DNA of 64,000 nt from an uncultured Rubrivivax sp. (GCA_964244245.1 CAXTHW010000010.1:52764-116763); one strand, 5' to 3'. Shown: positions 5,956-61,306, counted from the first letter of the stretch. The notes: generated by a model not told the origin, from the letters alone. Numbers and translations are program-made.

Positions 5956-6744
5956 ATGGGCATGGGCCAGTTGTCGCTCTTCGACGATGCGCCAGGTGTG
6001 CCGGCGGCCGACGTCTTCCGCCACCCGCGCGCCCAGCGCGAGATCCGTTTCGGCCAGCACACCGTGGGCTACGAGCTGCGGCGTGCGCGCCGGCGCAGCA
6101 TCGGCTTCGTGGTGGGCATCGACGGCCTGACCGTCAGCGCGCCGCGCTGGGTCGGGCTGGCGGACGTGGAAGCAGCCTTGCGCGAGAAAGCGCCGTGGAT
6201 CCTGCGCAAGCTGCAGCAGCAGCGCGAGCGCGCACAGCGGCTGGACGCCGCGCGGGTGGACTGGCGTGACGGCGCCACCATCCCCTTCCTGGGCCGCAGC
6301 GTCACCGTGCGGCTTCAGCCGGGCGCACGCGGGGCGGTGCTGGACGCAGACACCGGCGCGCTGCGGCTGGGCCTGCCGCAGGGCGCCGCGGCGGGGCAGA
6401 TCCGCGACACGGTGCAGAGCTGGCTGCAGCGCCAGGCGCGCCGGGTCTTCGAAGAGCGCTGCCAGCTCTTCGCCCCGCGGCTGGGCGTGCGCATGAAGCG
6501 GCTCAGCCTGAGTTCGGCCGCCACGCGCTGGGGCAGCGCGAGTGCAGACGGCTCGGTGCGGCTGAACTGGCGCCTGGTGCACTTCGGCCTGCCAGTCATC
6601 GACTACGTGGTGACGCACGAGCTGGCGCACCTGCGCGAGATGAACCACAGCGCCGCGTTCTGGGACGTGGTGCGCTCGGTGCTGCCCGACTACGAACAGG
6701 CCCGCGGCGCGCTCGGCAGCGAGGTGCTGCCGGTCTTCGACTGA
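5956..6744 (+). CDS. M48/SprT-like zinc metallopeptidase-fold protein (YgjP/DUF45 family)
   Basis: RWGSAS, DYVVTHELAHLREMNHS..FW (HExxH). Confidence 0.9.
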   Translation: MGMGQLSLFDDAPGVPAADVFRHPRAQREIRFGQHTVGYELRRARRRSIGFVVGIDGLTVSAPRWVGLADVEAALREKAPWILRKLQQQRERAQRLDAARVDWRDGATIPFLGRSVTVRLQPGARGAVLDADTGALRLGLPQGAAAGQIRDTVQSWLQRQARRVFEERCQLFAPRLGVRMKRLSLSSAATRWGSASADGSVRLNWRLVHFGLPVIDYVVTHELAHLREMNHSAAFWDVVRSVLPDYEQARGALGSEVLPVFD

Positions 6745-6893
6745 GCGCCACCGTCCTTCTTTGGAAGGATGGCGCTGTGTGCCGAAATCGGCACACTCCG
6801 CGCTTCGCTGTCATTGCAAGTGCGCACGGCGAATCCTCGGGAAGGTCATGAAGAAGCGGGGGTGGCGGGGTGGTGCACGCCGGCCCGTCACCC
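6744..6893. other. Cluster of four adjacent stem-loops between convergent genes
   Basis: Stems read by eye at 6744-6776, 6777-6796 (GTGTGCCGA/TCGGCACAC), 6804-6833 and 6860-6893. Confidence 0.55.
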
Positions 6894-6956
6894 ACCAGCT
6901 CTCTGCGGCTTGCGCCAGTTCAGCCGCTCCCGCCTTTCAATCCGTCTCCCGTTCTC

Positions 6957-8048
6957 TCACGCCTTCAGCGCGAAGCGCAGCACCCCGTCTGCGCTGCGAG
7001 GCGCTGCCACCAGCCGGCCCTGCGAGACCAGCGCATGCAGGTGCGCCACCGCCTCGCCCATCGCAAACGTCGTCTGGTGCAGGTCCAGCGTGCGCTTGAA
7101 CAGCACCGGCAGCAGGTCGGATGCACTCTGCGGCCCTTGCGCGCAGGCCTCCAGCACGTCGGCAAAGCGGTCTGTATGGTGTTGCGTGAGCTGCCCGATG
7201 CGCTCGTGCAGGCCGGTGAAGGGCTTGCCGTGGCTGGGCAGCACCAGCGTGCCGGCCGGCAGCGCCAGCAGCCGCGCGATGGACGCCAGGTACAGCGGCA
7301 GCGGGTCGGCCTCGGGCTCCAGGTCGAAGACGCTGATGTTGGTGGAAATGCGCGGCAGCACCATGTCGCCCGAGATCAGCAGGTTCAGCGCCGGGCAGTG
7401 CAGCGCGATGTGCTCCGGCGCGTGGCCGTAGCCTGCGATGCAATGCCAGGCGTTGCCACCGACCATCACCGTCATCCCGTCCAGCAGCCGCCGGTAGCGG
7501 CGCGGCACCTCGGGCACCATGTTCGCGTAGTAGTTGCTGCGCCCGCGCACCTGGGCCAGCGCGTCGGGGTCGGCCAGGCCGTGGCGTGCAAAGAAGCGGG
7601 CCGACTCCTCGCCGCCGAAGCCGGTGCTGGCCATGCTGGCCACGCGCGCTGCGTTCCAGTCGGTCGCGCTGATCCACAGCCTGCATTCGTGCTCAGGCGT
7701 GCTCCAGCGCTCGGTGAGCCAGTGCGCCAGGCCGATGTGGTCGGGGTGCATGTGGGTGACGATCACGCGCAGCACCGGCAGGCCTTGCAGCGCGGTGGCG
7801 AAGACGTGCTCCCAGGCGTCGCGCGTGGCGGCGTTGGCAATGCCGCAATCGACGATGGTCCAGCCCTGTCTCGGCCCGTCCGGGCCGTCCAGAACGTCGC
7901 GCAGCAGCCAGAGGTTGATGTGGTCCAGCGCGAAGGGCAGCGCCATGCGCAGCCAGCGCACGCCGGGCGCCAGCTCCAGCGTGGTGCCCACGGGTGGCAA
8001 CGTGTCGCCCAGGGGGTAGTGCAGCGCGCTCTCTTGCGGGTTGGCCAT
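6957..8048 (-). CDS. Metallo-beta-lactamase-fold hydrolase
   Basis: THMHPDHIG (HxHxDH), GHAPEH, ISGD, LPSHG. Confidence 0.92.
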   Translation of the reverse strand: MANPQESALHYPLGDTLPPVGTTLELAPGVRWLRMALPFALDHINLWLLRDVLDGPDGPRQGWTIVDCGIANAATRDAWEHVFATALQGLPVLRVIVTHMHPDHIGLAHWLTERWSTPEHECRLWISATDWNAARVASMASTGFGGEESARFFARHGLADPDALAQVRGRSNYYANMVPEVPRRYRRLLDGMTVMVGGNAWHCIAGYGHAPEHIALHCPALNLLISGDMVLPRISTNISVFDLEPEADPLPLYLASIARLLALPAGTLVLPSHGKPFTGLHERIGQLTQHHTDRFADVLEACAQGPQSASDLLPVLFKRTLDLHQTTFAMGEAVAHLHALVSQGRLVAAPRSADGVLRFALKA

Positions 8049-10517: not shown

Positions 10518-12289
10518 CCGACGGCCGGGCCTTCGAGATCGCCAGCGCGATGCTCGAAGGCTTCAACCGGCACTACCGGCTGTTCCGCGAGACCAGCGCC
10601 GCGGCCAAGCAGCGCTTCGAGCAGTCCGACTGGCACGGCCAACAGCGAGCGCAGCGCGAGCGCATCGAGTTCTACGACAAGCGCGTGCTCGAAGCGGTGG
10701 CCCGGCTGCGCGACGACTTTCACGTCGCGGAGCTGTCGATGGACACCTGGCAGCAGGCCAAGCTGCACTACATCGGCCTGCTGGTTGACCACCACCAGCC
10801 CGAGCTGGCCGAAACCTTCTTCAACTCGGTGACGGCCAAGCTGCTGCACCGCAGCTACTTCCGCAACGACTTCATCTTCGTGCGGCCCGCCGTCAGCACC
10901 GAGTACATCGAGAACGACGAGCCGGCCTCCGCGCCCACCTACCGCGCCTACTACCCCACGCATGCCACGCTGCACGAGACCTGGCGCCGTGTGGTCACCA
11001 ACTTCCAGTTGGAGCCCGACTTCGAAGACCTGGCGCGCGATGCGGAAAACGTGCTGCAAGCCATGCTGGCCGAGCTGGGCGGCTTCAGGCCGCGGGCGAA
11101 CTTCCAGATCCAGGTGCTGGCCAGCCTGTTCTACCGCAACAAGGGCGCCTATGTGGTGGGCAAGATCATCAACGGCTTCACCGAGACGCCGTTCGCGCTG
11201 CCCATCCTGCATGGCGAGCATGGCCTGCTCATCGACGCCGCCTTGTTCGGCGAGGACGACCTTGCCATCCTCTTCAGCTTTGCGCGCGCCTACTTCATGG
11301 TCGATATGGAGATCCCGTCGGCCTACGTGCAGTTTCTGCGCTCGATGATGCCGCGCAAGCCACGCTCGGAGCTGTACAGCGCCTTGGGGCTTCAGAAGCA
11401 GGGCAAGAACATGTTCTACCGCGACCTGCTGGCGCACCTGCGCCACAGCAGCGACAAGTTCCGCATCGCGCCCGGCATCAAGGGCATGGTGATGCTGGTC
11501 TTCGACCTGCCGTCGTTCCCCTATGTGTTCAAGGTGATCAAAGACTTCTATCCGCCGCAGAAGGACACCACGCGCGAGCAGATCAAGGGCAAGTACCTGC
11601 TCGTCAAGCAGCACGACCGGGTCGGCCGCATGGCCGACACGCTGGAGTACAGCAACGTGGCCTTTCCGCGCCACCGGCTGGACGACGAACTGGTGGCCGA
11701 GCTGAAGCACTTCTGCGGCAGCCTGCTCGAAGAAGACGCCGGCCCGGGCGGCGCCGGCGAGCAGGTGCTGGTGATCCGCCATGTCTATATCGAGCGGCGC
11801 ATGGTGCCGCTGAACATCTACTTGCAGGAAGGCGCGCCCGAGCAGGTGGCGCACGCCGTGGTGGAGTACGGCAACGCCATCAAGGACCTGGTGGCGGCCA
11901 ACATCTTTCCGGGCGACATGCTGTGGAAGAACTTCGGCGTCACGCGCCACGGCAAGGTGGTGTTCTACGACTACGACGAGATCGAATACGTCAGCGACTG
12001 CAACTTCCGCCGCGTGCCCACCCCGCGCAACGAGGAAGAAGAGATGTCGGGCGAGGTCTGGTACTCGGTCGGCCCGAAAGACGTCTTCCCCGAGACCTTC
12101 GGCCCCTTTCTGCTGGGCAACCCGGCCGTGCGCGAAGTCTTCATGGCGCACCACGCCGACCTGCTGGACGCCGCCTTCTGGCAGAGCCACAAAGAGCGCA
12201 TCCGCGCCGGCCATGTGCACGATGTGTTTCCATACGAGCCGGGCAAGCGCTTCACGCTGCGGCGGCACAATCTTCAAATGTCGATCTGA
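10499..12289 (+). CDS. aceK: Isocitrate dehydrogenase kinase/phosphatase (GTG start inferred)
   Basis: [47 protein letters not shown]. Confidence 0.96.
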
Positions 12290-41675: not shown

Positions 41676-42863
41676 ATGCAGCGTCGTTTGTTGCCCCTCG
41701 CCCTGGCCCTTGCCGCGCTCGCACCGGCGGCCTTCGCCCAGGCCGCCAAGGAAGTGAAGATCGCCCTCATCACCGGCAAGACCGGCCCGCTGGAGGCTTA
41801 TGCCAAGCAGACCATCACCGGCTTCATGATGGGCCTGGACTACGCCACGCAGGGGACGATGACGGTGGCCGGCAAGAAGCTGGTGGTGATCGAGAAAGAC
41901 GACCAGGGCAAGCCCGACCTGGGCAAGAACCTGCTCGCCGCTGCCTATGGCGACGACAAGGTCGATATCGCCGTCGGCACCACTGGCTCGGGTGTGGCGC
42001 TGGCGATGCTGCCGGTGGCCGAGGAGTACAAGAAGATTCTGCTCGTGGAGCCCGCGGTGGCAGACGCCATCACCGGCGACAAGTGGAACAAGTACATCTT
42101 CCGCACCGGCCGCAACAGCAGCCAGGACGCCATCTCCAACGCCGTCGCCTTCGACCAGGAGGGCCTGAACATCGCCATGCTGGCGCAGGACTACGCCTTC
42201 GGCCGTGACGGCGTCAAGGCCTTCAAGGACGCCATCAAGAAGGCGAAGATCGTGCATGAGGAGTACGTGCCGCAGAACTCCACCGACATCACCGCCGCAG
42301 CGCAGCGCATCTTCGACAAGCTCAAGGGCCTGCCCGGCACGAAGGTGGTGGGCATCGTCTGGGCCGGCAACATCGCCGTGCCGTTCAAGATGCTCGACCT
42401 GGAGCCGCAGCGCTACGGCATCACGCTGGCCACCGGCGGCAACATCCTGCCGGCGATGGTGCAGTACAAGCGCGTGCCAGGGATGGAAGGCGCCACCTAC
42501 TACTACTTCGGCATCCCGAAGAACGCGGTCAACGAATGGCTGGTGGCCAACCACTACAGCCGGTTCAAGACGCCGCCCGACTTCTTCACCGCAGGCGGCA
42601 TGAGCGCGGCCATCGCGGTGGTCGAGGCGCTGAAGAAGACCAAGGGCGACACCAACACCGACAAGCTCATCGCCACGATGGAAGGCATGAGCTTCGAGAC
42701 GCCCAAGGGCAAGATGACCTTCCGCAAGGAAGACCACCAGGCCATGCAGTCGATGTACCACTTCCGGATCAAGAACGACCCGGCCTTCGACTGGGGCGTG
42801 CCGGAGCTGGTGCGCGAGATCAAGCCCGAAGAGATGGCGATTCCGATCAAGAACAAGCGCTGA
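41676..42863 (+). CDS. ABC transporter substrate-binding protein (Liv/HAAT family)
   Basis: Signal peptide, KDDQGKPD, QDYAFGRDG; RBS GGAGA. Confidence 0.93.
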   Translation: MQRRLLPLALALAALAPAAFAQAAKEVKIALITGKTGPLEAYAKQTITGFMMGLDYATQGTMTVAGKKLVVIEKDDQGKPDLGKNLLAAAYGDDKVDIAVGTTGSGVALAMLPVAEEYKKILLVEPAVADAITGDKWNKYIFRTGRNSSQDAISNAVAFDQEGLNIAMLAQDYAFGRDGVKAFKDAIKKAKIVHEEYVPQNSTDITAAAQRIFDKLKGLPGTKVVGIVWAGNIAVPFKMLDLEPQRYGITLATGGNILPAMVQYKRVPGMEGATYYYFGIPKNAVNEWLVANHYSRFKTPPDFFTAGGMSAAIAVVEALKKTKGDTNTDKLIATMEGMSFETPKGKMTFRKEDHQAMQSMYHFRIKNDPAFDWGVPELVREIKPEEMAIPIKNKR

Positions 42864-49932: not shown

Positions 49933-50475
49933 TCAGCCGCGCTGCGGCCACATCCGGTTCAGCAGCCCGTCATGATCGACGAACTGGTGCTTGAGCGCCG
50001 CGGCCACGTGCAGCAGCACCAGCGCCGCCAAGGCCCAGGCCAGCGCGCCGTGCCAGGGCTTGATGGCGGCGGCCAGCACCTTGTCCGCAGCCACCAGGTC
50101 CGGCAGCGGCAGCAGGCCGAACAGCACCACCGGAAAGCCCGCGGCCGAGCTGTAGGCCCAGCCGACCAGCGGCACCGCCAGGAACAGCAGGTAGAAGATG
50201 CCGTGCGTCAGATGCGCGGCGCGCGCCTGCCAGGCAGCCATCGGCAAGTCGGCCGGTGGCCGGTGGCCGATGCGCCACAGCAGGCGCAGCACCGACAGCG
50301 CCAGGATGCAGACGCCGGCCCATTTGTGCCAGTTGAAGAGCTGAAGCCGGCGCGGCGAGAACGGCATGCCGGCCATCGTGAGCCCCACGGTGAAGGACAC
50401 GGCCAGCGCCGCCGCCAGCAGCCAGTGCAGCGTGATCGCGGGCAGCGTGTAGCGGGTGGGGGCGGGGCGGGGCAT
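49933..50475 (-). CDS. yceJ: Cytochrome b561
   Basis: LHWL, HKWAG, HGIFY, WHG..LHVAAALKHQF heme His pattern. Confidence 0.9.
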   Translation of the reverse strand: MPRPAPTRYTLPAITLHWLLAAALAVSFTVGLTMAGMPFSPRRLQLFNWHKWAGVCILALSVLRLLWRIGHRPPADLPMAAWQARAAHLTHGIFYLLFLAVPLVGWAYSSAAGFPVVLFGLLPLPDLVAADKVLAAAIKPWHGALAWALAALVLLHVAAALKHQFVDHDGLLNRMWPQRG

Positions 50476-50581
50476 GGTCGCGGGCTGGCATCGGCGAGGC
50501 CCGAGTATCCGCCGTCGCAAAGGGGCGGGCGCTCTGCCTAGAATGGCCGGTTCCGCCCACGCCACACCCCCTCCCGAGCCC

Positions 50582-53500
50582 ATGTCGTCCGGCCTCATTC
50601 GCATCCGTGGTGCGCGCCAGCACAACCTGAAGAACCTCGACCTGGACATCCACACCGGCGAGATGACGGTGGTTACCGGGCCCAGCGGCTCGGGCAAGTC
50701 GAGCCTGGTGTTCGACACGCTGTATGCCGAAGGCCAGCGCCGCTACGTCGAAACCTTCAGCGCCTACGCCCGCCAGTTCCTCGACCGGATGGACCGGCCG
50801 GCGGTGGACCGGGTGGACGGCGTGCCGCCGGCCATCGCCATCGACCAGACCAACCCGGTGCGCACCAGCCGCAGCACGGTCGGCACGATGACCGAGCTGA
50901 ACGACCACCTGAAGCTGCTCTTCGCCCGCGCCGCGCAGCTCTTCGACCAGCAGACCGCGCTGCCGGTGCGGCACGACACGCCCGAGACGATCTATGCCGA
51001 TCTGCAGGCGCGTGCAGAAGCTGCAGGAGACCCGCGCCTGGTGCTGACCTTTCCGGTGGAGCTGCCCGGCGACACCACGCCAGAGCAGCAGGCGCAGTGG
51101 CTGTCGGCCAGCGGCTTTACACGCGTGCAGGGCGAGCGCACGGTCGGCACGCGCAAGCTGCTGGACGTGGTGGCCGACCGCCTGCGCCTGGGCAGTGCAG
51201 AGAAGGTGCGCGTGATGGAGGCCATCGAGCTGTCGCTCAAGCGCGGCAGCGGGCGGCTCAGCGTCTTCGCCGGGGACGATGGTGCCACGCTGTGGCGCTA
51301 CAGCACCGGCCTGCACTGCCCCGAAAGCGACCAGCGCTATGCCGACCCGCAGCCGGCGATGTTCAGCTTCAACAGTGCCTATGGCGCCTGCGACACCTGC
51401 CGCGGCTTCGGCCGCGTGATCGGCGTCGATTTCGGCCTGGTGATCCCCGACGAGCGCAAGACGCTGCGCAACGGCGCCATCAAGCCGATGCAGACACCGG
51501 CTTGGAAGGACTGCCAGGACGACCTCATCAAGTACGCCGGCGAGGCCGGCATCCCGCGCGACACCGCCTGGAGCATGCTCACGCAGGCCCAGCGCGACTG
51601 GGTGGTGGAAGGCTCGCCGCACTGGACGGGCAACTGGAACAAGCAGTGGTACGGCGTGCGCCGCTTCTTCGGCTACCTGGAGAGCAAGGCCTACAAGATG
51701 CACATCCGCGTGCTCTTGTCGAAGTACCGCAGCTACACGCCCTGCGGCGTCTGCGGCGGCGCGCGGCTGAAGCTGGAGGCGCTGCTCTGGCGCATCGGCA
51801 GCCGGGCCGATGCCGACGGCGTGCTGCCGCCGGCCACGCGCCAGCAGGCTTCTTCACGCTTCATGCCGGTGGGCGTGCCGTGGAGCCGGGAGCAGCTCGA
51901 AGCCTTGCCGGGGCTGCACCTGCACGACCTGATGCAGCTCAGCATCGAACGCCTGCGCCGTTTCTTCGACGGCCTGACGCTGCCCAGCACCATGCTCGAC
52001 GAAGCGCTGAAGCTGCTGCTCGACGAAGTGCGCACGCGGCTCAAGTACCTGTGCGACGTGGGCCTGCACTACCTCAGCCTGGACCGCCAGAGCCGCACGC
52101 TCAGCGGCGGCGAGGTGCAGCGCATCAACCTCACCACCGCGCTCGGCACCAGCCTCGTCAACACCATGTTCGTGCTCGACGAGCCCAGCATCGGCCTGCA
52201 CCCGCGCGACATGAACCGCATCGTGCAGGCCATGCACCGGCTGCGCGACGCGGGCAACACGCTGGTGGTGGTGGAGCATGACCCGGCGGTGATGCTGGCC
52301 GCCGACCGGCTCATCGACATGGGCCCGGGCCCGGGCGAGCGCGGCGGGCAGATCGTCTTCGACGGCACGCCCGACGCGGCACGCCATGCCGACACGCTGA
52401 CCGGCGCCTACCTGGGTGGCCGCAAGCAGGTCAGCAGCGGCTTTCGCCGGCTGGTGGACGGCGCCACGCCCAAGCTGGTGCTGGAAGGTGCGCGCGACCA
52501 TAACCTGCAAAGCGTGACGGTGGAACTGCCGCTGCAACGGCTGGTGGTGGTCACCGGCGTCAGCGGCTCGGGCAAGAGCACCTTGATCCAGGACGTGCTG
52601 TACCCGGCGCTGGCCCGCCACTTCGGCAAGGCGACCGAAACGCCAGGCGCGCACGACCGGCTGCTGGGCGCCGACTGGCTGAGCGACGCGGTGTTCGTCG
52701 ATCAAAGCCCCATCGGCAAGACGGCGCGCAGCAACCCGGCCAGCTACGTGGGCGCCTTCGACGAGTTGCGCAAGATTTTTGCCGATGCGCCGCTGGCGCG
52801 CGAGCGCAGCTACAGCGCCACCACGTTCAGCTTCAACGCAGGTGACGGCCGTTGCCCCACCTGCGGCGGCTCGGGCTTCGAGCATGTGGAGATGCAGTTC
52901 CTCAGCGACGTCTATCTGCGCTGCCCCGACTGCGACGGCCGTCGCTACCGCGCCGAAATCCTCGACGTCAAGGTGGTGCGCGGGCCGATGCAGTTGAGCA
53001 TTGCCGACACGCTGGACCTGACGGTGGCCGAGGCGGCGCACTGGTTCCAGAACGACCGCGAGGTGGTGGCGCGGCTGCAGCCCATCATCGACGTCGGCCT
53101 CGACTACGTGCGCCTGGGCCAGCCGGTGCCCACCTTGTCCGGTGGCGAGGCGCAGCGGCTCAAGCTGGCCGGCTTCCTGGCGGATGCAGCGACGGGTCCA
53201 CGCCAGCCCGCCGCCAAACGCGGCACGCTTTTCCTGTTCGACGAGCCCACCACGGGCCTGCACTTCGACGACATCGCCAAGCTGATGCGCGCATTGCGCA
53301 AGCTGATGGACGCAGGGCATTCGCTGCTGGTGATCGAGCACAACCTGGACGTGATCCGTGCGGCCGACTGGATCGTCGATCTCGGCCCCGAAGGCGGCGA
53401 AGGCGGCGGCCATGTCGTCTGCGTCGGCACGCCGGACGACGTGAAGGCGCATGCCACGTCGCACACCGGGCTGGCGCTGCGCGAGTACGAGACGACGCTG

Positions 53501-56290
53501 GGCGTGGGTGTGCCGCAAGCGCAGGAAGGCCGGCCGCTGCAGTCCGTCGTGCGCGCGCAGCGGCAGGCGCGGCGGCTGCTGGACGACAGCATCCGCATCG
53601 TCAACGCGAAAGAGCACAACCTCAAGAGCCTGAGCGTCGATATCCCGCGCGGCAAGTTCAACGTGGTCACCGGCGTCAGCGGCTCGGGCAAGAGCACGCT
53701 GGCCTTCGACATCCTGTTCAACGAAGGCCAGCGCCGCTATCTGGAAAGCCTGAATGCCTATGCGCGCAGCATCGTGCAGCCGGCGGGGCGGCCCGAGGTC
53801 GATGCCGTCTATGGCATTCCGCCCACGGTTGCCATCGAGCAGCGCCTGTCCCGCGGCGGGCGCAAGAGCACGGTTGCCACCACCACCGAGGTCTGGCATT
53901 TCCTGCGCCTCTTGTGGGTGAAGCTGGGCCTGCAGCACTGCGTGAACGACGGCGCGCCGGTGCGGGCGCAGAGTGCCGAGAGCATCGCCGCGCAACTGCT
54001 GCGCGACCCGTCCTTGGGTGGACACATGGGCCAGCATGTCGGCCTGCTGGCGCCGCTGGTCATCAACCGCAAGGGCGTCTATACCGACCTTGCCAAGTGG
54101 GCCAAGGCGCGCGGCCACACGCATCTGCGGGTGGATGGCGAGTTCCTGCCGCTGACGCCGTTCCCCAGGCTCGACCGCTTCAAGGAGCACACGCTGGAGC
54201 TGCCTGTCGGCGACATCGTCGTCACGCCGGAGAACGAGGCAGAACTGCGCGCGCTGCTGAGCAAGACGCTGGAGCTGGGCAAGGGCGTGCTGCATCTGCT
54301 GCACCCGCTGGACGGGCTGGTGGAGTCGCTCAACCTGTTCGGCGCCGGCATGGGCGTCGGCGAGCTGAAGGTGTTCTCCACCAAGCGCGCCTGCCCCGTC
54401 TGCGGCACCAGCTACCCCGAGCTGGACCCGCGGATGTTCAGCTACAACAGCAAGCATGGCTGGTGCAGCACCTGCGTCGGCACCGGGCTGGCGCTGACGC
54501 GCGAGCAGCGCAAGGCCTACGACGACTCGGTGCGTGACGACGAGAGCAAAGGCCGCGAGCAGAGCTTCCCCGCCGAGGAGGCCGAGGTCGAAGGCGTCGA
54601 GGACGTGCAGTGCCCCGACTGCCACGGCGCGCGGCTGAACCCGGCGGCACGCGGCGTCACCTTCGACAGCCAGGCCATCAGCGACATCGCCGCGCTGTCG
54701 GTGCGCGACAGCCAGCGCTGGATCGACGCGCTGGCGCTCACCGGGCGCGACGCCGACATCGCGCGCGACGTGGTGGTGGAGATCAAGAGCCGGCTCGAAT
54801 TCCTCGGCGAAGTGGGCCTGGGCTACCTGACGCTGGACCGCGCCGCGCCCACGCTCAGCGGCGGCGAGGCGCAGCGCATCCGGCTGGCGGCGCAGCTCGG
54901 CAGCAACCTGCAAGGCGTCTGCTACGTGCTGGACGAGCCGACGATCGGCCTGCACCCGCGCGACAACGGCATCTTGCTGAACGCACTGGCCAAGCTGGGC
55001 GACAAGGGCAACACGCTGGTGGTGGTGGAGCACGACGAAGACACCATCCGCCGTGCCGACCACATCATCGACATCGGCCCCGGTGCCGGCAAGCGCGGCG
55101 GCACGCTGGTGGCGCAGGGCACCGCGGCTGATCTGGCGGGCGTTGCCGCGTCGGTGACGGGCCGCTTCCTGGCGCAGCCGCTGTTGCACCCGCTGCATGC
55201 GCGGCGCGTGGTGGAGCCCGGCGCACCGGCGCTGCGGCTGCTGGGTGCGTCGCTGCACAACCTGCAAAGCGTGGGTGTCGATGTGCCGCTGCAACGGCTG
55301 GTGGCCGTCAGCGGCGTCAGCGGCTCGGGCAAGAGCACGCTGGCGCGCGACGTGCTGCTGGCCAACGTGCAGGCGGTGGTGGCGATGAAGGCCACCAAGG
55401 CCGGCCGCGACAGCCTGGCCGCGGGCCGGCTGCCGGCCTTGGTCGGCTGCACCGGGCTGGTCGGCTTCGGCCCGATCGACCGCGTGCTGGAGGTCGATCA
55501 AACACCCATCGGCAAGACGCCGCGCTCCTGCCCGGCCACCTACATCGGCTTCTGGGACACCATCCGCAAGCTGTTCACCGAAACGCTGGAGGCCAAGGCG
55601 CGCGGCTATGCCGCGGCCCGCTTCAGCTTCAACACGGGAGACGGCCGCTGCCCTGCTTGCGAAGGCCAGGGCCTGCGCACCATCGCGATGAGCTTTCTGC
55701 CCGACGTCAAGGTGCCCTGCGACGCCTGCCACGGCGCCCGCTTCAACCCCGAGACGCTGGCAGTGAGCTGGCGCGGAAAAAGCATCGGCGACGTGCTCCA
55801 GATGGAGGTGGACGAAGCGGTCGATTTCTTTGCCAGCATGCCGAACATCAGCCACCCGCTGCAGTTGCTGAAAGACGTGGGCCTGGGCTACTTGACGCTG
55901 GGCCAGCCCAGCCCCACGCTGAGCGGCGGCGAGGCGCAGCGCATCAAGCTGGTGACCGAACTCAGCAAGGTGCGCGACGACGTCACGCGCCGCGGCAACA
56001 AGCCGCCGCACACGCTGTACGTGCTGGACGAGCCGACCGTCGGCCTGCACATGGCCGACGTGGAGCGGCTGATCCGCGTGCTGCACCGGCTGGTGGACGG
56101 CGGCCACAGCGTGGTGGTGATCGAGCACGACCTGGACGTGATCGCAGAAGCCGACTGGGTCATCGACCTGGGGCCCGAAGGCGGCGGTGAAGGCGGCCGC
56201 GTGGTGGTGGCCGGGCCGCCGGAGGCGGTGGTGGCGGCCGGGTCGCACACGGGAGTGGCGCTGGCGCCGGTGTTGTCACGCGGGGGGTGA
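50582..56290 (+). CDS. uvrA: Double-length (tandem) UvrA-family ABC ATPase, about 1902 aa
   Basis: Four G(P/V)SGSGKS Walker A, four LSGGE signatures, four DEP(S/T)xGLH motifs, several CxxC; -10-like TAGAAT at 50539. Confidence 0.95.
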
Positions 56291-56809
56291 CGGAGAGAGG
56301 CGACGAATCCACAACGCCGCGCGCTGCGCTTCCGCGGGGTCTTCCAATTCGGCTGCCCGGCTCAGGGCGTCGGCTAGTCGCACAACCCCGTGCTTGAGCA
56401 AGGCACGGTTGAATAGTGCGTCTTTCTCACGGGCGGCACATGCCTTTGAAACGAACAAGTCCACCGGGTCCAGGCAGTAGGCAACACGGCCATTGGTTTC
56501 GTCGTTCTGCAAACGGACCAGCCGTTCTTGCCACCCGTTCGGAAGATGCGCGGTTTCCGGCGAGACGCCCTGCGCGTAGTAGCCAAAGCGATCATGAAAC
56601 ATCGACAGTTCGCCGATGCTGCCATCGATCAAATCGGCCAACTCGGGCGCCTGCATCGGATAGATGTCAGCCTCCATGGAGAGGACGCATTCCGGCGGCG
56701 GCCTGTCGATGGCCCCGACGATGGATTGGCTGCCGACCACCACGAACTCGTACTGGTTCGTGATCTCGGCTGCTGCGCGAATCAGGTGGGCGAGTTGCGA
56801 CCTTTGCAT
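56276..56809 (-). CDS. Predicted nucleotidyltransferase-fold protein (DUF6036-like)
   Basis: MQRSQLAHLIRAA, VVVGSQS..SMEAD (hG[GS]..[DE]xD pattern), DLFVSK..A.REKD. Confidence 0.75.
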   Translation of the reverse strand: MQRSQLAHLIRAAAEITNQYEFVVVGSQSIVGAIDRPPPECVLSMEADIYPMQAPELADLIDGSIGELSMFHDRFGYYAQGVSPETAHLPNGWQERLVRLQNDETNGRVAYCLDPVDLFVSKACAAREKDALFNRALLKHGVVRLADALSRAAELEDPAEAQRAALWIRRLSPSPPA

Positions 56810-57102
56810 GCGCGGATGATCTCCAGTCGCCGCGCAGCAGGCAACGCCCGCCCCAACGGTGACGCCTGGCGCAACTGCTGGCCTCGATCCGTCCGTGCCA
56901 GGGCACGGCCCCATTCGCCGCTGGTCAAGATACTGCGCCATTCGTCGCGTAGCGGCTTGGAAGAGGCAGCAGCCACGGTTTCCCAGTGGTCCAGCGTCGC
57001 AAGCACGGCCTCCAGCCGAGACGGCTCGCGGCGCAGTGCTTCCAGTGCCGCTTCCGTCAACAGAAGGCTCTGCAAATCGCTGGTGCTGTGATCCGGGTCC
57101 AT
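56782..57102 (-). CDS. Small helical hypothetical protein, putative antitoxin/partner
   Basis: 106 aa with W..W..LRQASPL motif; overlaps the NTase start by 28 bp. Confidence 0.7.
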   Translation of the reverse strand: MDPDHSTSDLQSLLLTEAALEALRREPSRLEAVLATLDHWETVAAASSKPLRDEWRSILTSGEWGRALARTDRGQQLRQASPLGRALPAARRLEIIRACKGRNSPT

Positions 57103-57165
57103 GGCCGAAGCCTACCGCGCGCATGCGACTTCGAGCAAGATATCCAGGCCCGCTTGATCTGCCCA

Positions 57166-57625
57166 ATGCTGCAACCCGACCTCGTCTTCCGCCTCGCCAA
57201 CAGCGCCGCGCTGCTGGCCTGGATCGCCTTGCTGTGCTCCCCACCCGAGGCGCGCTGGAGCGCTGCGGTGCGGCGCGTCACCGGCCGCGTGCTGCCACTG
57301 CTCCTTTTGCCTGCTCTACGTCGTGATGCTGCTGGCCTACTGGCCCGGGCAAGGCGGCTTCGGCACGCTTGCCGAGGTGCGCATCTTGTTCGACATACCG
57401 GGCATGCTGGCGGCAGGCTGGATCCACTACCTGGCCTTCGACCTGTTCGTCGGCAGTTGGATCGCCGCGCGCGGTGCGGCCTTGCGCCTGCCGCACTGGC
57501 AACTGTTGCCCGTGCTGCTGCTGACGTTTCTCTTCGGCCCGGCCGGCCTGCTGGCCTTCATGCTGCTGCGCGCCGTGCGGCGCCCGGCCTCGTTGCTTGG
57601 CGCAGCGCAGGACGGCGAGGCGTGA
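57166..57625 (+). pseudogene. ABA4-like (DUF4281) membrane protein gene split by a +1 frameshift
   Basis: N-part MLQPDLVFRLANSAALLAW continues as LLC-LLYVVM..GGFGTL..WIHYLAFDLFVG..GPAG only if one T of TTTT at 57305-57308 is removed. Confidence 0.8.
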
Positions 57626-58499: not shown

Positions 58500-59525
58500 A
58501 TGCGCCTGCCCTTGCCTTCAACTCTCGCCTGCGCCGCAGCGGCCGGCCTGCTGCTGCTGGCCGGCCCGGCCGCGGCGCAGGTGGTGCTCACCGCGTCGTC
58601 CTGGGTGCCGCCGTCGCACATGCTGACCGAGACGATGAAAGACTGGTGCGGCCAGCTCGAGCAAAAGACGCAGGGCAAGGCCAAGTGCAACATCCTGCCG
58701 CGCGCGGTGGCCGCGCCGCCAGCCAGCTTCGACGCGGTGCGCAACGGTCTGGCCGACCTGTCGTTCACGGTGCACGGCTACACGCCGGGCCGCTTCATCA
58801 CCACGCAGATGGCAGAAATGCCCTTCCTCGGTGACTCGGCGGAGGCCGCGTCGGTGGCCTACCAGCGCATGTTCGCCAAGACGCCGGCCATCGGCGACGA
58901 GCACAAGGGCGTCAAGGTCATCACCGTCTTCACCCACGGCCCCGGCATGGTGTTCAACACCAAGCGGCCCGTCACCAAGATCGACGACCTGGCGGGTTTG
59001 AAGTTCCGCATCGGCGGCGGCCTGGTGGGCGACATCAGCAAGGCGCTGGGGATGAACGTGACGCTCAAGCCGTCCACTGAAAACTACGAGTTGTTGTCCA
59101 CCGGCGTGATGGACGGCACCTTGTTCCCGGCCGAGTCGGTGGAGGCTTTCAAGATCGACAAGATCGTCAAGTACGGCACCAGTTTCCCGGGCGGCCTGTA
59201 CAACACCAGCTTCGTGTTCATGATGAACCAGGCCAAGTACGACGCGCTGCCGCCCGACGTGAAGAAGGCCGTCGATGAACTGTCGGGCGAGCCCGCAGCG
59301 CGCATGTTCGGCCGCGGCTGGGACAAGGTGGACAGGCGCGGCATGGCCTTCATGCAGGCCGGCGGTGTGCAGTTCACCAAGGCCGACGCGGCCTTCGTCA
59401 AGGCCGTGGCTGCGAAGACCGCGCCGCTGGAAGACAACTGGGCGCAGGCCGCCGAGGCCAAGGGTCTGAAAGGCGCGAAGAAGGCGCTGGCCGACTACCG
59501 CGCCGAAATCAAGAAGCTCCAGTAA
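58500..59525 (+). CDS. dctP: TRAP transporter substrate-binding protein
   Basis: Signal peptide, TPGRF, GLKFR, GVMDG. Confidence 0.92.
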   Translation: MRLPLPSTLACAAAAGLLLLAGPAAAQVVLTASSWVPPSHMLTETMKDWCGQLEQKTQGKAKCNILPRAVAAPPASFDAVRNGLADLSFTVHGYTPGRFITTQMAEMPFLGDSAEAASVAYQRMFAKTPAIGDEHKGVKVITVFTHGPGMVFNTKRPVTKIDDLAGLKFRIGGGLVGDISKALGMNVTLKPSTENYELLSTGVMDGTLFPAESVEAFKIDKIVKYGTSFPGGLYNTSFVFMMNQAKYDALPPDVKKAVDELSGEPAARMFGRGWDKVDRRGMAFMQAGGVQFTKADAAFVKAVAAKTAPLEDNWAQAAEAKGLKGAKKALADYRAEIKKLQ

Positions 59526-60017: not shown

Positions 60018-61306
60018 CCGAAGCGCTGCTCGGCTTCGCGGCGGTCTTCGTGCTGGCGCTGCTGCGCATCCCGCTGGCCTTTGCGATGGGCGCGGTGGGC
60101 GTCGTCGGCCTGGGCCTGTTGCGCGGCTGGCAGCCGGCGCTGGCCAACGCAGCGCAGGTGGTCTATGACACCGGCTTCGCCTACACGCTGAGCGTGGTGC
60201 CGCTGTTCATCCTGATGGGCAACTTCGTCGCGCGGGCCGGGCTGGCGCACGAGCTGTTCCGCGCCGCCCATGCCTTCATCGGGCACCGGCGCGGCGGCCT
60301 GGCGCATGCGACGGTGATCGCCTGCGCCGGCTTCGGCGCGATCTGCGGCTCGTCCATCGCCACCGCGGCCACGATGGCCAAGGTGGCCTACCCGCCGATG
60401 AAGGCGCTGGGATACTCCAACGCGCTGGCCACCGGCGTCATCGCGGCCGGCGGCACGCTGGGCATCATGATCCCGCCGTCCACCATCATGGTGATCTACG
60501 GCATCGTCACCGAGACCAACATCGGCAAGCTGTTCGCCGCCGGCGTGATCCCCGGGCTGATGAGCGCGCTGATGCTGATGGGCGGCGTGGCCTGGATCGC
60601 CTGGCGCGACCCGGCCGCCGCACCGGCCGGTGAGCGCTCCACCTGGCCGGCCCGGCGGCGTGCGTTGCGCGACATCTGGGGCGTGGTGCTGCTGGTCGTG
60701 GTGGTGCTGGGCGGCATCTACGGCGGCGTGTTCACCGCCACCGAAGGCGCGGGCATCGGTGCTTCGGGCGCCTTCTTCTTCGCGCTGCTGCGGCGCGCGC
60801 TGACATGGGCCGCGTTCTTCGAGGTGCTGGTGGAAAGCGCGCGCACCACGGCGATGCTGTTCACCATCCTGATCGCGGCGATGCTGTTCTCCAGCTTCGT
60901 CAACTTCACCACGATGCCGGCCGACCTGAAGGCGTGGATCCTGCACCAGGGTTTCAGCCCGCTGATGGTGGTGGGCGCGATGATGGTCATCTACGTGCTG
61001 CTGGGCACCATCATGGAAGAGCTGTCGATGGTGCTGCTCACCATCCCGGTGTTCTTCCCCATCGTCACCAGCCTGGGCTTCGACCCCGTCTGGTTCGGCG
61101 TGCTGATCGTGCTGGTGGTGCAGATCGGCCTGATCTCGCCGCCGGTGGGCATGAACCTGTTCGTGCTGAACGCGCTGCTGAAAGACGTCACGCTGCGGCA
61201 GGTCTTCCAGGGCGTCTGGCTCTTCGTGCTGATCCTCAGCGTGGCGCTGTTTCTGGTGCTGGAATTTCCGGCGCTGTCGCTCTGGCTGCCCGGCTTCATG
61301 CGCTGA
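60014..61306 (+). CDS. dctM: TRAP transporter large permease
   Basis: PLFILMG, GSSIAT, IPPS, SPPVG. Confidence 0.94.
   Translation: MTEALLGFAAVFVLALLRIPLAFAMGAVGVVGLGLLRGWQPALANAAQVVYDTGFAYTLSVVPLFILMGNFVARAGLAHELFRAAHAFIGHRRGGLAHATVIACAGFGAICGSSIATAATMAKVAYPPMKALGYSNALATGVIAAGGTLGIMIPPSTIMVIYGIVTETNIGKLFAAGVIPGLMSALMLMGGVAWIAWRDPAAAPAGERSTWPARRRALRDIWGVVLLVVVVLGGIYGGVFTATEGAGIGASGAFFFALLRRALTWAAFFEVLVESARTTAMLFTILIAAMLFSSFVNFTTMPADLKAWILHQGFSPLMVVGAMMVIYVLLGTIMEELSMVLLTIPVFFPIVTSLGFDPVWFGVLIVLVVQIGLISPPVGMNLFVLNALLKDVTLRQVFQGVWLFVLILSVALFLVLEFPALSLWLPGFMR

What the first reader, a model, noticed from the sequence alone, without database searches (positions are those of the whole stretch)
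56276..57120. Lower-GC two-gene module: small helical protein + nucleotidyltransferase, a candidate new toxin-antitoxin/defence system
Two overlapping minus-strand genes (106 aa then 177 aa) are visibly more AT-rich than the flanks, with rare codons, and wedge between uvrA (15-bp tail overlap) and the ABA4-like gene. The second has a Pol-beta-type NTase motif (GSQS..EAD). Small-partner-then-NTase order recalls AbiE/MenAT modules, whose toxins nucleotidylate tRNA, but the partner (W..W..RQASPL) has no HTH or family I can assign. No mobility genes flank it.
Basis: partly seen in the sequence, partly recalled or inferred. Interest (0 to 1): 0.72.

Follow-up and report, generated by a model that had tools for sequence, protein, structure and literature searches.

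The report
Headless DUF6036 nucleotidyltransferase toxin-antitoxin-like cassette
Two overlapping, foreign-looking genes next to uvrA form a compact cassette: a small MenT1-like nucleotidyltransferase of the unstudied DUF6036 family and its obligatory helical partner, here in a lineage that has lost the usual DNA-binding head. It is most likely an untested toxin-antitoxin pair.

Summary
Two minus-strand genes, of 106 aa (56782-57102) and 177 aa (56276-56809), overlap by 28 bp. The pair has 63.6% GC against 70.2% for the window, and GC3 of 73% against 91% in uvrA. It lies between a tandem-duplicated uvrA (15-bp tail overlap) and a frameshifted ABA4-like gene.

The 177-aa protein belongs to Pfam DUF6036. 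A broad family profile finds only the M. tuberculosis toxin MenT1 among solved structures, at marginal significance, and the model's top fold matches are nucleotidyltransferases including MenT1, none significant.

The 106-aa protein has no Pfam family and no fold match, but it defines a large family (about 1,050 clusters at 50% identity). It sits directly upstream of the enzyme in all 78 complete relatives. In about 80% of them it carries an N-terminal Xre-type HTH. The window belongs to a conserved headless lineage.

The pair is patchy (3 of 37 congeners), occurs on 60 plasmids and in unrelated chromosomal contexts, and carries its own promoter boxes that suggest a leaderless transcript. A second DUF6036 branch pairs with a CopG antitoxin instead.

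All comparative hallmarks fit a toxin-antitoxin module of the MenAT/AbiE kind, but nothing is tested. Caveats: the enzyme is acidic, the partner is basic, and two relatives have a broken partner beside an intact enzyme.

The parts
57133..57138 (-). -35-like box TTGCTC of the cassette's own promoter (inferred)
   Evidence: A TTGCnn box lies 17-18 nt upstream of the -10-like box and is aligned in 6 of 8 headless relatives that sit in otherwise unrelated flanks. The strict sigma-70 consensus scan found nothing here.
57109..57114 (-). -10-like box TAGGCT, 6 nt before the start codon, with no Shine-Dalgarno sequence; suggests a leaderless mRNA (inferred)
   Evidence: GGTAnnCT is the only conserved non-coding sequence upstream of the partner gene in all 8 headless loci compared. 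It lies 6 nt before ATG, or 8 nt before GTG (sequence).
56782..57102 (-). Partner gene, 106 aa, all-helical and basic (pI 9.3); headless form of the DUF6036-partner domain with the invariant L-R-Q-A-S-P motif (residues 77-82). Predicted antitoxin.
   Evidence: ORF. 126 word-index homologues, most of exactly 106 aa. 1,048 representatives at 50% identity. Invariant residues. AF2 pLDDT 86, seven helices. No Pfam, NCBIfam, PADLOC, PDB-sequence or fold match. omega about 0.22.
56782..56809 (-). 28-bp overlap of the partner's 3' end and the NTase's 5' end (translational coupling, inferred)
   Evidence: Coordinates. The same 28-bp overlap is called in metagenomic relatives (6708-7028 and 7001-7519 in L135 to L139).
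56276..56809 (-). DUF6036 nucleotidyltransferase gene, 177 aa, acidic (pI 5.1). Motifs: G26-S27 (hG[GS]), S44-x-E46-x-D48, D117/K122/R127/D130. Predicted toxin.
   Evidence: PF19502, 39.3 bits against a cut-off of 23.6. More than 2,430 homologues. AF2 pLDDT 94.8. Family-wide invariant residues G26, D48, D117, K122, D130. Sole PDB sequence hit is MenT1 8an4, E 0.008. Top Foldseek hits are ANT(2'')-Ia, MenT1 and TglT/MenT3, none significant. omega about 0.12-0.15.
56276..56290 (.). 15-bp convergent overlap of the NTase stop region with the uvrA stop region (cassette boundary)
   Evidence: uvrA ORF ends at 56290 and the NTase ORF ends at 56276. Sequence downstream of the NTase stop is not conserved among relatives apart from uvrA itself in L002, L003 and L005.

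Best explanation
The 863-bp stretch 56276-57138 (minus strand) is a self-contained, horizontally acquired two-gene cassette of an uncharacterised toxin-antitoxin-like family.

The downstream gene encodes a compact DUF6036 nucleotidyltransferase. It is distantly related to the MenT1/AbiEii class of tRNA-modifying NTase toxins and is the predicted toxin. By analogy it would add nucleotides to an RNA 3' end, most likely a tRNA acceptor end, and block translation.

The upstream gene encodes a basic helical domain that binds and neutralises the acidic enzyme and is the predicted antitoxin. Its invariant L-R-Q-[AS]-S-P loop probably reaches the active site. In most relatives this domain is fused to an interchangeable DNA-binding head that would repress the operon. 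The window's lineage has lost the head and keeps only the neutralising domain. It is transcribed from a conserved promoter, apparently as a leaderless mRNA, and is translationally coupled to the enzyme.

Shown here: gene structure, family membership, strict pairing, modular partner architecture, patchy and plasmid-borne distribution, foreign composition, purifying selection.

Inferred: physical interaction, toxicity, the substrate, which protein is the toxin, and the biological role (addiction/stabilisation or abortive-infection defence).
For: 1. The NTase matches PF19502 above its cut-off.
2. Motif I (G26-S27), motif II (E46-x-D48) and a C-terminal D117..K122..R127..D130 motif are invariant in the subfamily. 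G26, D48, D117, K122 and D130 are invariant across divergent DUF6036 branches.
3. A broad DUF6036 profile searched against 177,635 PDB sequences returns one hit only, the toxin MenT1 (8an4), at E 0.008. It aligns the VGG, R-F-T-R-D-V-D and L-I-x-x-K...D stretches in register.
4. Foldseek independently ranks MenT1 and TglT/MenT3 second to fifth, behind ANT(2'')-Ia.
5. S44-x-E46 has the spacing of the phospho-acceptor and first carboxylate in MenT3 (S78, D80) and MenT4 (S67, D69) (PMC7450476; PMC11375011).
6. Pairing is strict. 78 of 80 genome loci have the partner domain immediately upstream on the same strand; the other 2 are cut by a contig end. The same holds on plasmids and in more distant relatives.
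7. The partner is modular. Heads found are Xre HTH_31/HTH_3, HTH_37, a DUF6088-like head just below the cut-off, or none.
8. Partners are swapped between branches. Another DUF6036 branch is followed by a CopG_antitoxin (PF12441) gene.
9. Mobility. The module is in 3 of 37 congeners and DUF6036 in 13 of 401 genomes of the phylum. It is on 60 plasmids, 29 of them conjugative. On pALIDE01 it sits next to an AbiEii pair and an integrase. Chromosomal contexts are unrelated. The NTase tree cuts across taxonomy. GC and GC3 are low.
10. Charge is complementary family-wide: NTase median pI 5.2, partner domain median pI 10.6.
11. One natural partner-NTase fusion exists, P0305.
12. Both genes are under purifying selection, and the headless lineage is coherent (18 rows).
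Against: - No experiment exists for any DUF6036 protein; no paper in the library mentions the family.
- The links to MenT/AbiEii are marginal. There is no PF08843 hit for the window protein. hhalign against an AbiEii alignment gives 1% probability. Foldseek E-values are 0.07-0.7 with TM about 0.4.
- The enzyme is acidic in all 81 relatives and the partner is basic. This is the reverse of the usual basic RNA-binding toxin with an acidic antitoxin.
- Two relatives have a lesion in the partner's key region beside an apparently intact NTase: L049 has a 1-nt deletion and L040 has TAG at the Ser of RQASP. This is unexpected if the free enzyme is lethal, unless these are sequencing errors or the genes are silent.
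- No third carboxylate is obvious on the predicted third strand.
- PADLOC lists no such defence system, and no phage carries the gene.
Confidence: 0.55

Rival explanations
1. Reversed or enzymatic roles, as in the type VII HepT/MntA systems. The acidic NTase would be the neutraliser and would nucleotidylate the basic partner, for example at the invariant Ser of L-R-Q-A-S-P. The partner, a basic nucleic-acid-binding protein, would be the growth inhibitor or a regulator whose activity is switched by the modification.
For: - The NTase is acidic and the partner domain strongly basic across the family.
- The partner has an unusually invariant R-Q-[AS]-S-P loop for a mere binding domain.
- MNT-type NTases do act as AMPylating antitoxins (PMC7641770, listed).
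- Loci with a broken partner and an intact NTase exist.
Against: - In about 80% of relatives the partner carries an Xre-type HTH head and is the first gene, the standard layout of an autoregulating antitoxin.
- A sister DUF6036 branch pairs with a bona fide antitoxin family, CopG.
- Loci with a broken NTase and an intact partner also exist (L007, L064, G025).
- The partner has no HEPN match or Rx4-6H motif and no fold match.
- The closest solved relative of the enzyme is a toxin.
Confidence: 0.12
2. The pair is not a toxin-antitoxin module. It would be a regulator or adaptor plus an enzyme that modifies a small molecule or another cellular target without harming the host, for example an ANT-like antibiotic or metabolite nucleotidyltransferase under control of its partner.
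For: - The best Foldseek hit is the 177-aa aminoglycoside nucleotidyltransferase ANT(2'')-Ia, at E 0.068 and probability 0.66.
- The enzyme is acidic.
- Relatives with a broken partner and an intact enzyme exist.
- In the Streptococcus suis Xre-MNT pair the NTase was toxic only when sent to the periplasm (PMC8406773). Its relation to DUF6036 is unknown.
Against: - Strict gene-pair conservation with overlapping reading frames, partner swapping with a CopG antitoxin, a neighbouring AbiEii pair on pALIDE01, patchy distribution and plasmid carriage are typical of selfish or defence cassettes, not of resistance genes.
- In the headless lineage the partner cannot be a transcription factor, yet it is kept under purifying selection.
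- The only PDB sequence hit is MenT1, not ANT.
Confidence: 0.15
3. In this window the cassette is a decaying remnant. Loss of the HTH head would mark an inactive, drifting module with no present function.
For: - The head is missing.
- The neighbouring ABA4-like gene is frameshifted.
- Some relatives carry stops in one gene or the other.
Against: - The 106-aa headless form is conserved in length in about a hundred clusters.
- It forms a coherent lineage with two well-supported subclades spread over several families.
- It keeps every invariant residue.
- It keeps the 28-bp overlap and its own promoter boxes.
- omega is about 0.1-0.3.
Confidence: 0.05

Closest known systems
MenA1/MenT1 (Rv0078B/Rv0078A) and the wider MenAT family of Mycobacterium tuberculosis (DUF1814 NTase toxins; PMC10435456, PMC7450476, PMC11375011)
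   Same: - It is a two-gene module with a compact NTase of about 180-200 aa preceded by a small helical partner.
- MenT1 is the only solved structure found by the DUF6036 profile and is a top fold match.
- It shares the hG[GS] motif, an [ST]-x-[DE]-x-D motif with the Ser/Thr at the position of the MenT phospho-acceptor, and a C-terminal K...D motif.
- MenT toxins are likewise neutralised by unrelated antitoxin families.
   Different: - It is a different Pfam family (PF19502, not PF08843), and the profile-profile comparison is not significant.
- The first carboxylate is Glu, not Asp.
- The enzyme is acidic.
- The partner domain has no relation to MenA1, MenA3 or AbiEi and no known fold.
- No activity has been shown.
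AbiEi/AbiEii (Streptococcus agalactiae, Lactococcus), an abortive-infection toxin-antitoxin system
   Same: - A DNA-binding partner comes first and an NTase second.
- It is mobile and patchy.
- A bona fide AbiEii pair lies directly upstream of a DUF6036 pair on plasmid pALIDE01.
- One DUF6036 branch gives a sub-threshold AbiEii hit.
   Different: - AbiEii is about 240-300 aa and matches PF08843; the window protein does not.
- AbiEi has a winged-HTH and a COG5340 C-terminal domain, whereas the partner here is a different domain and headless.
- PADLOC models do not detect it.
HepT/MntA (HEPN/MNT) type VII toxin-antitoxin systems
   Same: A minimal NTase is paired with a small helical protein, and covalent modification between the partners is a possible mechanism.
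   Different: - In HepT/MntA the NTase is the antitoxin and the HEPN RNase is the toxin.
- The partner here has no HEPN match or Rx4-6H motif.
- In most relatives the partner carries an HTH head typical of antitoxins.
Xre-type modular antitoxins with a C-terminal toxin-binding domain (Xre/MbcA/ParS with RES toxins)
   Same: Relatives' partners have the same logic: an N-terminal Xre HTH plus a C-terminal domain specific for the cognate enzyme. One homologue (P0324) even carries both this domain and an Xre_MbcA_ParS_C domain.
   Different: The C-terminal domain is a different, unannotated family. The toxin is an NTase, not a RES NAD+ phosphorylase. The window's version lacks the HTH.

Membership tests
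Pfam DUF6036 (PF19502) nucleotidyltransferases | Match to the family HMM above the curated gathering score | tested here: met
   39.3 bits against a cut-off of 23.6, E 7.3e-10, residues 9-131. All 25 aligned homologues match.
Pol-beta-type nucleotidyltransferase fold | An hG[GS] motif after strand 1 and [DE]h[DE]h on strand 2, in an alpha-beta-alpha-beta core | tested here: met
   V-G26-S27 follows predicted strand 21-24. E46-A-D48 lies on predicted strand 46-51 of a model with pLDDT 94.8. G26 and D48 are invariant across DUF6036 branches.
Pol-beta-type nucleotidyltransferase fold | Significant structural similarity to solved NTases | tested here: inconclusive
   The top five Foldseek hits are all NTases (ANT(2'')-Ia, MenT1, TglT/MenT3), but with E 0.07-0.7 and TM about 0.4.
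AbiEii/MenT (DUF1814, PF08843) NTase toxins | Match to PF08843 or a significant profile-profile similarity | tested here: not met
   There is no PF08843 hit for the window protein or its 25 homologues, even at E 10. hhalign against an AbiEii alignment gives probability 1.1%, although motifs I, II and IV fall in register. Another DUF6036 branch gives only a sub-threshold hit at E 0.009.
AbiEii/MenT (DUF1814, PF08843) NTase toxins | Sequence relation to a solved MenT toxin | tested here: inconclusive
   The broad DUF6036 profile finds MenT1 (8an4) as the only PDB sequence with E up to 10. The full-sequence E is 0.0079 and the domain E is 0.07.
AbiEii/MenT (DUF1814, PF08843) NTase toxins | Growth arrest relieved by the cognate partner; nucleotide addition to tRNA 3' ends | not testable with these tools
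   This needs expression and biochemical assays. No literature exists on DUF6036.
AbiEi / MenA3-type antitoxins | Winged-HTH N-terminal domain plus COG5340-type C-terminal domain | tested here: not met
   The partner has no Pfam, NCBIfam or PADLOC hit and no fold match. One distant plasmid relative has a DUF6088-like head just below the cut-off.
HEPN/MNT (HepT/MntA) | A partner with a HEPN domain and an Rx4-6H motif | tested here: not met
   No HEPN family hit, no HEPN structure among the fold matches, and no conserved His after the conserved Arg residues.
Toxin-antitoxin modules in general (comparative hallmarks) | Two small adjacent or overlapping genes that always co-occur | tested here: met
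   78 of 78 complete loci. Overlaps of 28 bp or 4-8 bp.
Toxin-antitoxin modules in general (comparative hallmarks) | One partner carries a DNA-binding domain for autoregulation | tested here: not met
   This is not met in the window, where the partner is headless. It is met in about 80% of relatives, which have an Xre HTH.
Toxin-antitoxin modules in general (comparative hallmarks) | Patchy distribution, plasmid carriage, partner swapping | tested here: met
   The module is in 3 of 37 congeners and DUF6036 in 13 of 401 genomes of the phylum. It is on 60 plasmids. A sister branch has a CopG antitoxin partner. The NTase tree is incongruent with taxonomy.
Known anti-phage defence systems (PADLOC-DB 2.0) | Match to any model of a known or candidate defence protein | tested here: not met
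   No hit for either protein at E up to 1.

The most novel reading that the evidence does not exclude
DUF6036 enzymes and the L-R-Q-[AS]-S-P partner domain would form a large, unrecognised second family of compact NTase toxin-antitoxin systems, controlled by covalent switching rather than simple plugging. Either the partner's invariant loop drives auto-phosphorylation of the enzyme's invariant Ser44, the position of the MenT phospho-acceptor, or the enzyme nucleotidylates the partner's invariant Ser81. The headless lineage in this window would then be a natural separation-of-function variant. It would show that neutralisation needs only the ~100-aa domain and that the operon can run without autorepression, from a leaderless transcript.
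Probability: 0.2. Interest if true: 0.75.

Novelty: new variant of a known kind. Interest (0 to 1): 0.5.

Why it matters
NTase toxins (MenT, AbiEii) are a recently understood class that blocks translation by extending tRNA acceptor ends. They are switched off by antitoxin-induced auto-phosphorylation. All work so far concerns DUF1814 proteins.

DUF6036 is a compact family with thousands of members. Its obligatory partner domain, with about a thousand clusters at 50% identity, is in no domain database. If the family works in the same way, this mechanism would extend to a second family and would add a new antitoxin fold.

The headless form found here is the simplest version to test. It consists of two small proteins with no DNA-binding activity to confound the result. 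If the pair proves non-toxic, that would be equally informative, because it would show that a textbook toxin-antitoxin-like genomic signature can belong to something else.

Tried and rejected
- **Family scans.** NCBIfam and PADLOC scans of both proteins gave no hit.
- **Partner against solved structures.** The PDB sequence search and the fold search gave nothing meaningful.
- **NTase against PDB.** The narrow NTase profile gave only a chance tailspike hit. The broader profile was needed to reach MenT1.
- **hhalign of DUF6036 against AbiEii.** Alignments were built from genomes of relatives. The first attempt was too shallow (Neff 1.9). The second gave 1% probability. Membership in DUF1814 is therefore rejected.
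- **Phage and viral searches.** The phage genome search and the BFVD fold search gave no relatives.
- **Site features.** The search for flanking direct or inverted repeats and att-like sites found only chance-level matches. The strict sigma-70 and terminator scan found no promoter and one chance-level terminator.
- **Empty-site test.** Five congeners with the ABA4-like gene do not have uvrA next to it, so no clean empty site was found. The uvrA-module linkage recurs in L002, L003 and L005, but the other flank differs.
- **HEPN reading of the partner.** Rejected: no motif, no fold match.
- **Literature.** No paper mentions DUF6036.
Full report
**1. The observation**

The minus strand of 56276-57102 holds two overlapping ORFs.
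- P0001 is 106 aa (56782-57102).
- P0002 is 177 aa (56276-56809).
- They overlap by 28 bp.

The longer 322-aa reading of the second ORF is not the gene. All 25 aligned homologues start at the MQR... methionine.

The NTase's 3' end overlaps by 15 bp the 3' end of a plus-strand gene (ORF 50456-56290, 1944 aa as listed). NCBIfam identifies that gene as excinuclease ABC subunit UvrA, in two tandem copies.

Upstream and divergent, only 63 bp away, starts an ABA4-like gene (PF14108).

Composition is foreign:

| Measure | Module | Comparison |
|---|---|---|
| GC | 63.6% | 70.2% for the window |
| Rank among 827-bp windows | lowest 1.1% | |
| GC3 | 73% | 91% in uvrA |

**2. The enzyme**

P0002 matches Pfam DUF6036, "nucleotidyltransferase of unknown function", at 39.3 bits against a cut-off of 23.6. 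It matches nothing in NCBIfam or PADLOC. It has more than 2,430 homologues in the 90% clusters.

The AlphaFold model is confident (pLDDT 94.8, pTM 0.89). It shows an N-terminal alpha/beta core followed by a helical C-terminal half.

The Pol-beta NTase signatures sit where expected:
- V-G26-S27-Q-S29 follows strand 1.
- S44-M-E46-A-D48 lies on strand 2.
- A C-terminal motif reads D114..D117-L-F-x-S-K122-x-x-x-x-R127-x-K-D130.

All of these are invariant in the subfamily. Across very divergent DUF6036 branches the invariant residues are G26, D48, D117, K122 and D130.

**3. Relation to known NTases**

The window protein is not a DUF1814/AbiEii member by sequence:
- There is no PF08843 hit, even at E 10.
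- hhalign against an AbiEii alignment built from related genomes gives 1% probability, although motifs I, II and IV line up in register.

Two independent weak signals nevertheless point the same way:
- A broad DUF6036 profile searched against all PDB sequences returns a single hit with E up to 10. It is the M. tuberculosis toxin MenT1 (8an4), with E 0.008 for the whole sequence and 0.07 for the domain. VGS aligns to VGG, the S/T-x-D/E-x-D stretch aligns to R-F-T-R-D-V-D, and the L-x-x-x-K...D stretch also aligns.
- Foldseek with the model ranks ANT(2'')-Ia first (E 0.068), then MenT1 (E 0.25) and TglT/MenT3 (E 0.5-0.7). No non-NTase ranks above them.

The Ser two residues before the first carboxylate (S44-x-E46) matches the spacing of the phospho-acceptor in MenT3 (S78, D80) and MenT4 (S67, D69) (PMC7450476). 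Antitoxin-induced auto-phosphorylation of that residue is the unifying control mechanism of MenT toxins (PMC11375011).

I therefore treat DUF6036 as a separate, compact family that is a distant relative of MenT1-type toxins. This is a lead, not a proven membership.

**4. The partner**

P0001 has no match by any route tried:
- no Pfam, NCBIfam or PADLOC family;
- no PDB sequence match;
- no fold match, despite a good model (pLDDT 86, seven helices).

It is nonetheless a real, conserved protein.
- There are 126 word-index homologues, most of exactly 106 aa.
- An exhaustive profile search finds 1,048 representatives at 50% identity.
- Invariant positions include L51-R52..W55 and L77-R78-Q79-x-S81-P82.

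The key finding is its architecture in relatives. In 62 of 78 genome loci the same domain is the C-terminal half of a protein of about 230 aa. The N-terminal half of that protein is an Xre-type HTH (HTH_31/HTH_3).

Other heads occur as well:
- HTH_37 in a Mycolicibacterium plasmid;
- a DUF6088-like head, just under the cut-off, in a Methylovorus plasmid.

Odd fusions also exist: with a HAD_SAK_2 domain, with an Xre_MbcA_ParS_C antitoxin module, with HVO_A0114, and once with the NTase itself.

The window's protein is thus the bare enzyme-specific domain of a modular partner.

**5. Pairing, mobility and selection**

*Pairing.* Of 80 genome loci found with the NTase, 78 have the partner domain directly upstream on the same strand. 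The other two are cut by the contig end. The same holds on plasmids and in more distant relatives.

*Distribution.* The pair is rare and patchy.
- The module is in 3 of 37 genomes of the genus, and DUF6036 is in 13 of 401 genomes of the phylum.
- It is on 60 plasmids, 29 of them conjugative, and on no phage.
- On pALIDE01 it lies directly after an AbiEii pair and before an integrase.
- On two plasmids it follows the relaxase gene.
- In metagenomic chromosomes it sits in unrelated contexts, next to TerB or next to VWA/TelA genes.

*Phylogeny.* The NTase tree cuts across taxonomy. Near-identical copies occur in alpha-, beta- and gammaproteobacterial bins, and there is one copy in Akkermansiaceae.

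*Selection.* Both genes are under purifying selection: omega is about 0.22 for the partner and about 0.12-0.15 for the NTase. dS is saturated, so these values are rough.

*Partner swapping.* A second DUF6036 branch has the motif GG...T-x-D-x-D. It is followed, rather than preceded, by a CopG_antitoxin (PF12441) gene. Such partner swapping is characteristic of toxin-antitoxin evolution.

**6. What is particular to this window**

The headless partners are not scattered accidents. On the NTase tree 18 of them fall together. They form two strongly supported subclades of 7 and 11 rows, nested in a clade whose other members are headed. The only outlier is a contig-edge artefact. The head was therefore probably lost once or twice, and the bare pair then spread through Sphaerotilaceae, Comamonadaceae, Rhodocyclaceae and beyond.

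The cassette carries its own signals. In eight headless loci with otherwise unrelated flanks, the only conserved non-coding sequence is a GGTAnnCT box 6-8 nt before the start codon. In six of the eight there is also a TTGCnn box 17-18 nt further upstream.

In the window these boxes are TAGGCT (57109-57114) and TTGCTC (57133-57138). With no Shine-Dalgarno sequence and 6 nt between the -10-like box and the ATG, a leaderless transcript starting at about 57102 is the simplest reading. This is an inference.

Nothing is conserved after the NTase stop. The cassette is therefore about 863 bp, 56276-57138.

The tail-to-tail junction with uvrA recurs in three relatives (L002, L003, L005), while their other flank differs. 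Five congeners with the ABA4-like gene do not have uvrA beside it. I could not find a clean empty site.

**7. Mechanism and caveats**

The best-supported reading is a toxin-antitoxin-like pair of the MenAT/AbiE kind. The NTase would be the toxin, probably acting on RNA 3' ends. The helical domain would be its neutraliser.

Family-wide charge complementarity fits a tight complex: median pI is 5.2 for the NTase and 10.6 for the partner domain.

Several facts temper this reading.
- An acidic enzyme with a basic partner is the reverse of the usual pattern. This keeps alive a HepT/MntA-like alternative in which the NTase modifies the partner.
- Decay goes both ways. The NTase is broken and the partner intact in L007, L064 and G025. 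The partner is hit in its key motif while the NTase looks intact in L049 (1-nt deletion) and L040 (TAG at the Ser of RQASP).
- The links to MenT are marginal.
- No experiment exists for any member. No paper mentions DUF6036.

**8. Earlier notes of this scan**

Many earlier notes describe DUF6036 pairs with interchangeable heads and reach the same reading. They are AI notes, not independent evidence. The claims I relied on were re-tested here: pairing, modular heads, MenT1 as the closest structure, and the leaderless layout.

**9. Verdict**

The pair is a headless member of a widespread, uncharacterised NTase toxin-antitoxin-like family. I class it as a new variant of a known kind and of moderate interest. 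It is the simplest version of the family on which to test toxicity and the neutralisation mechanism.

Noticed in passing
window 57166-57625 (+): The ABA4-like gene (PF14108) is split between two frames near 57295-57305, at a CTCCTTTTGCC run. The N-terminal 45 codons and the C-terminal 100 codons are 157 nt apart in phase here but in the same frame in five congeners. This is either a real frameshift pseudogene or an assembly error.
   Followed up: partly
window 50456-56290 (+): uvrA is a 1944-aa ORF made of two tandem UvrA units. TIGR00630 matches residues 5-953 of the 1901-aa query (window 50585-56290), and the models match again up to residue 1898.
   Followed up: partly
P0102, P0107, P0109; L134:3001-3771 (Methylovorus plasmid pMsip01): Some DUF6036 NTases carry a C-terminal KfrB domain (PF18790). 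On conjugative plasmids the pair lies just after the relaxase gene. By eye, the C-terminus of the neighbouring TraI looks similar to that KfrB stretch. This may link the family to plasmid transfer or maintenance.
   Followed up: partly
L082:4636-7252 (Alicycliphilus plasmid pALIDE01): Two NTase-type pairs lie in tandem: a small gene plus an AbiEii gene, then a headless partner plus DUF6036. A site-specific integrase gene follows.
   Followed up: partly
L121, L123, L126, L127, L130 (genomes of one family, 1.8-2.5 Mb): A different DUF6036 branch (VGG...T-x-D-x-D, about 150-170 aa) is followed by an 83-aa CopG_antitoxin/BrnA-like gene. The gene order is reversed relative to the window's family.
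   Followed up: partly
P0277, P0324, P0267, P0305: The partner domain occurs fused to a HAD_SAK_2 domain (RNA-repair context), to a complete Xre_MbcA_ParS antitoxin module, to an HVO_A0114 wHTH, and once to the NTase itself.
   Followed up: no
L049:5830-5875 (Diaphorobacter aerolatus KACC 16536); L040:5885-5915: The partner gene carries a 1-nt deletion just before the LRQTSP motif (L049), or a TAG at the Ser codon of RQASP (L040), while the NTase next to it looks intact.
   Followed up: partly
G000:C4:27104-27559 (own genome, another contig; L115): The same genome also holds an AbiEii-family (PF08843) match at E 2.7e-20, so it carries at least two NTase-type modules.
   Followed up: no
window about 10700-11800, 41750-42750, 58750-59300, 60750-61250: These are other patches with GC of 62-64% in a 70% GC window, comparable to the module. 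They were not examined.
   Followed up: no
L135:5780-6241 and L139:5024-9428: In two unrelated metagenomic contexts the headless cassette lies next to tellurite-type stress genes: TerB in one, and VWA plus TelA in the other. This may be coincidence.
   Followed up: no
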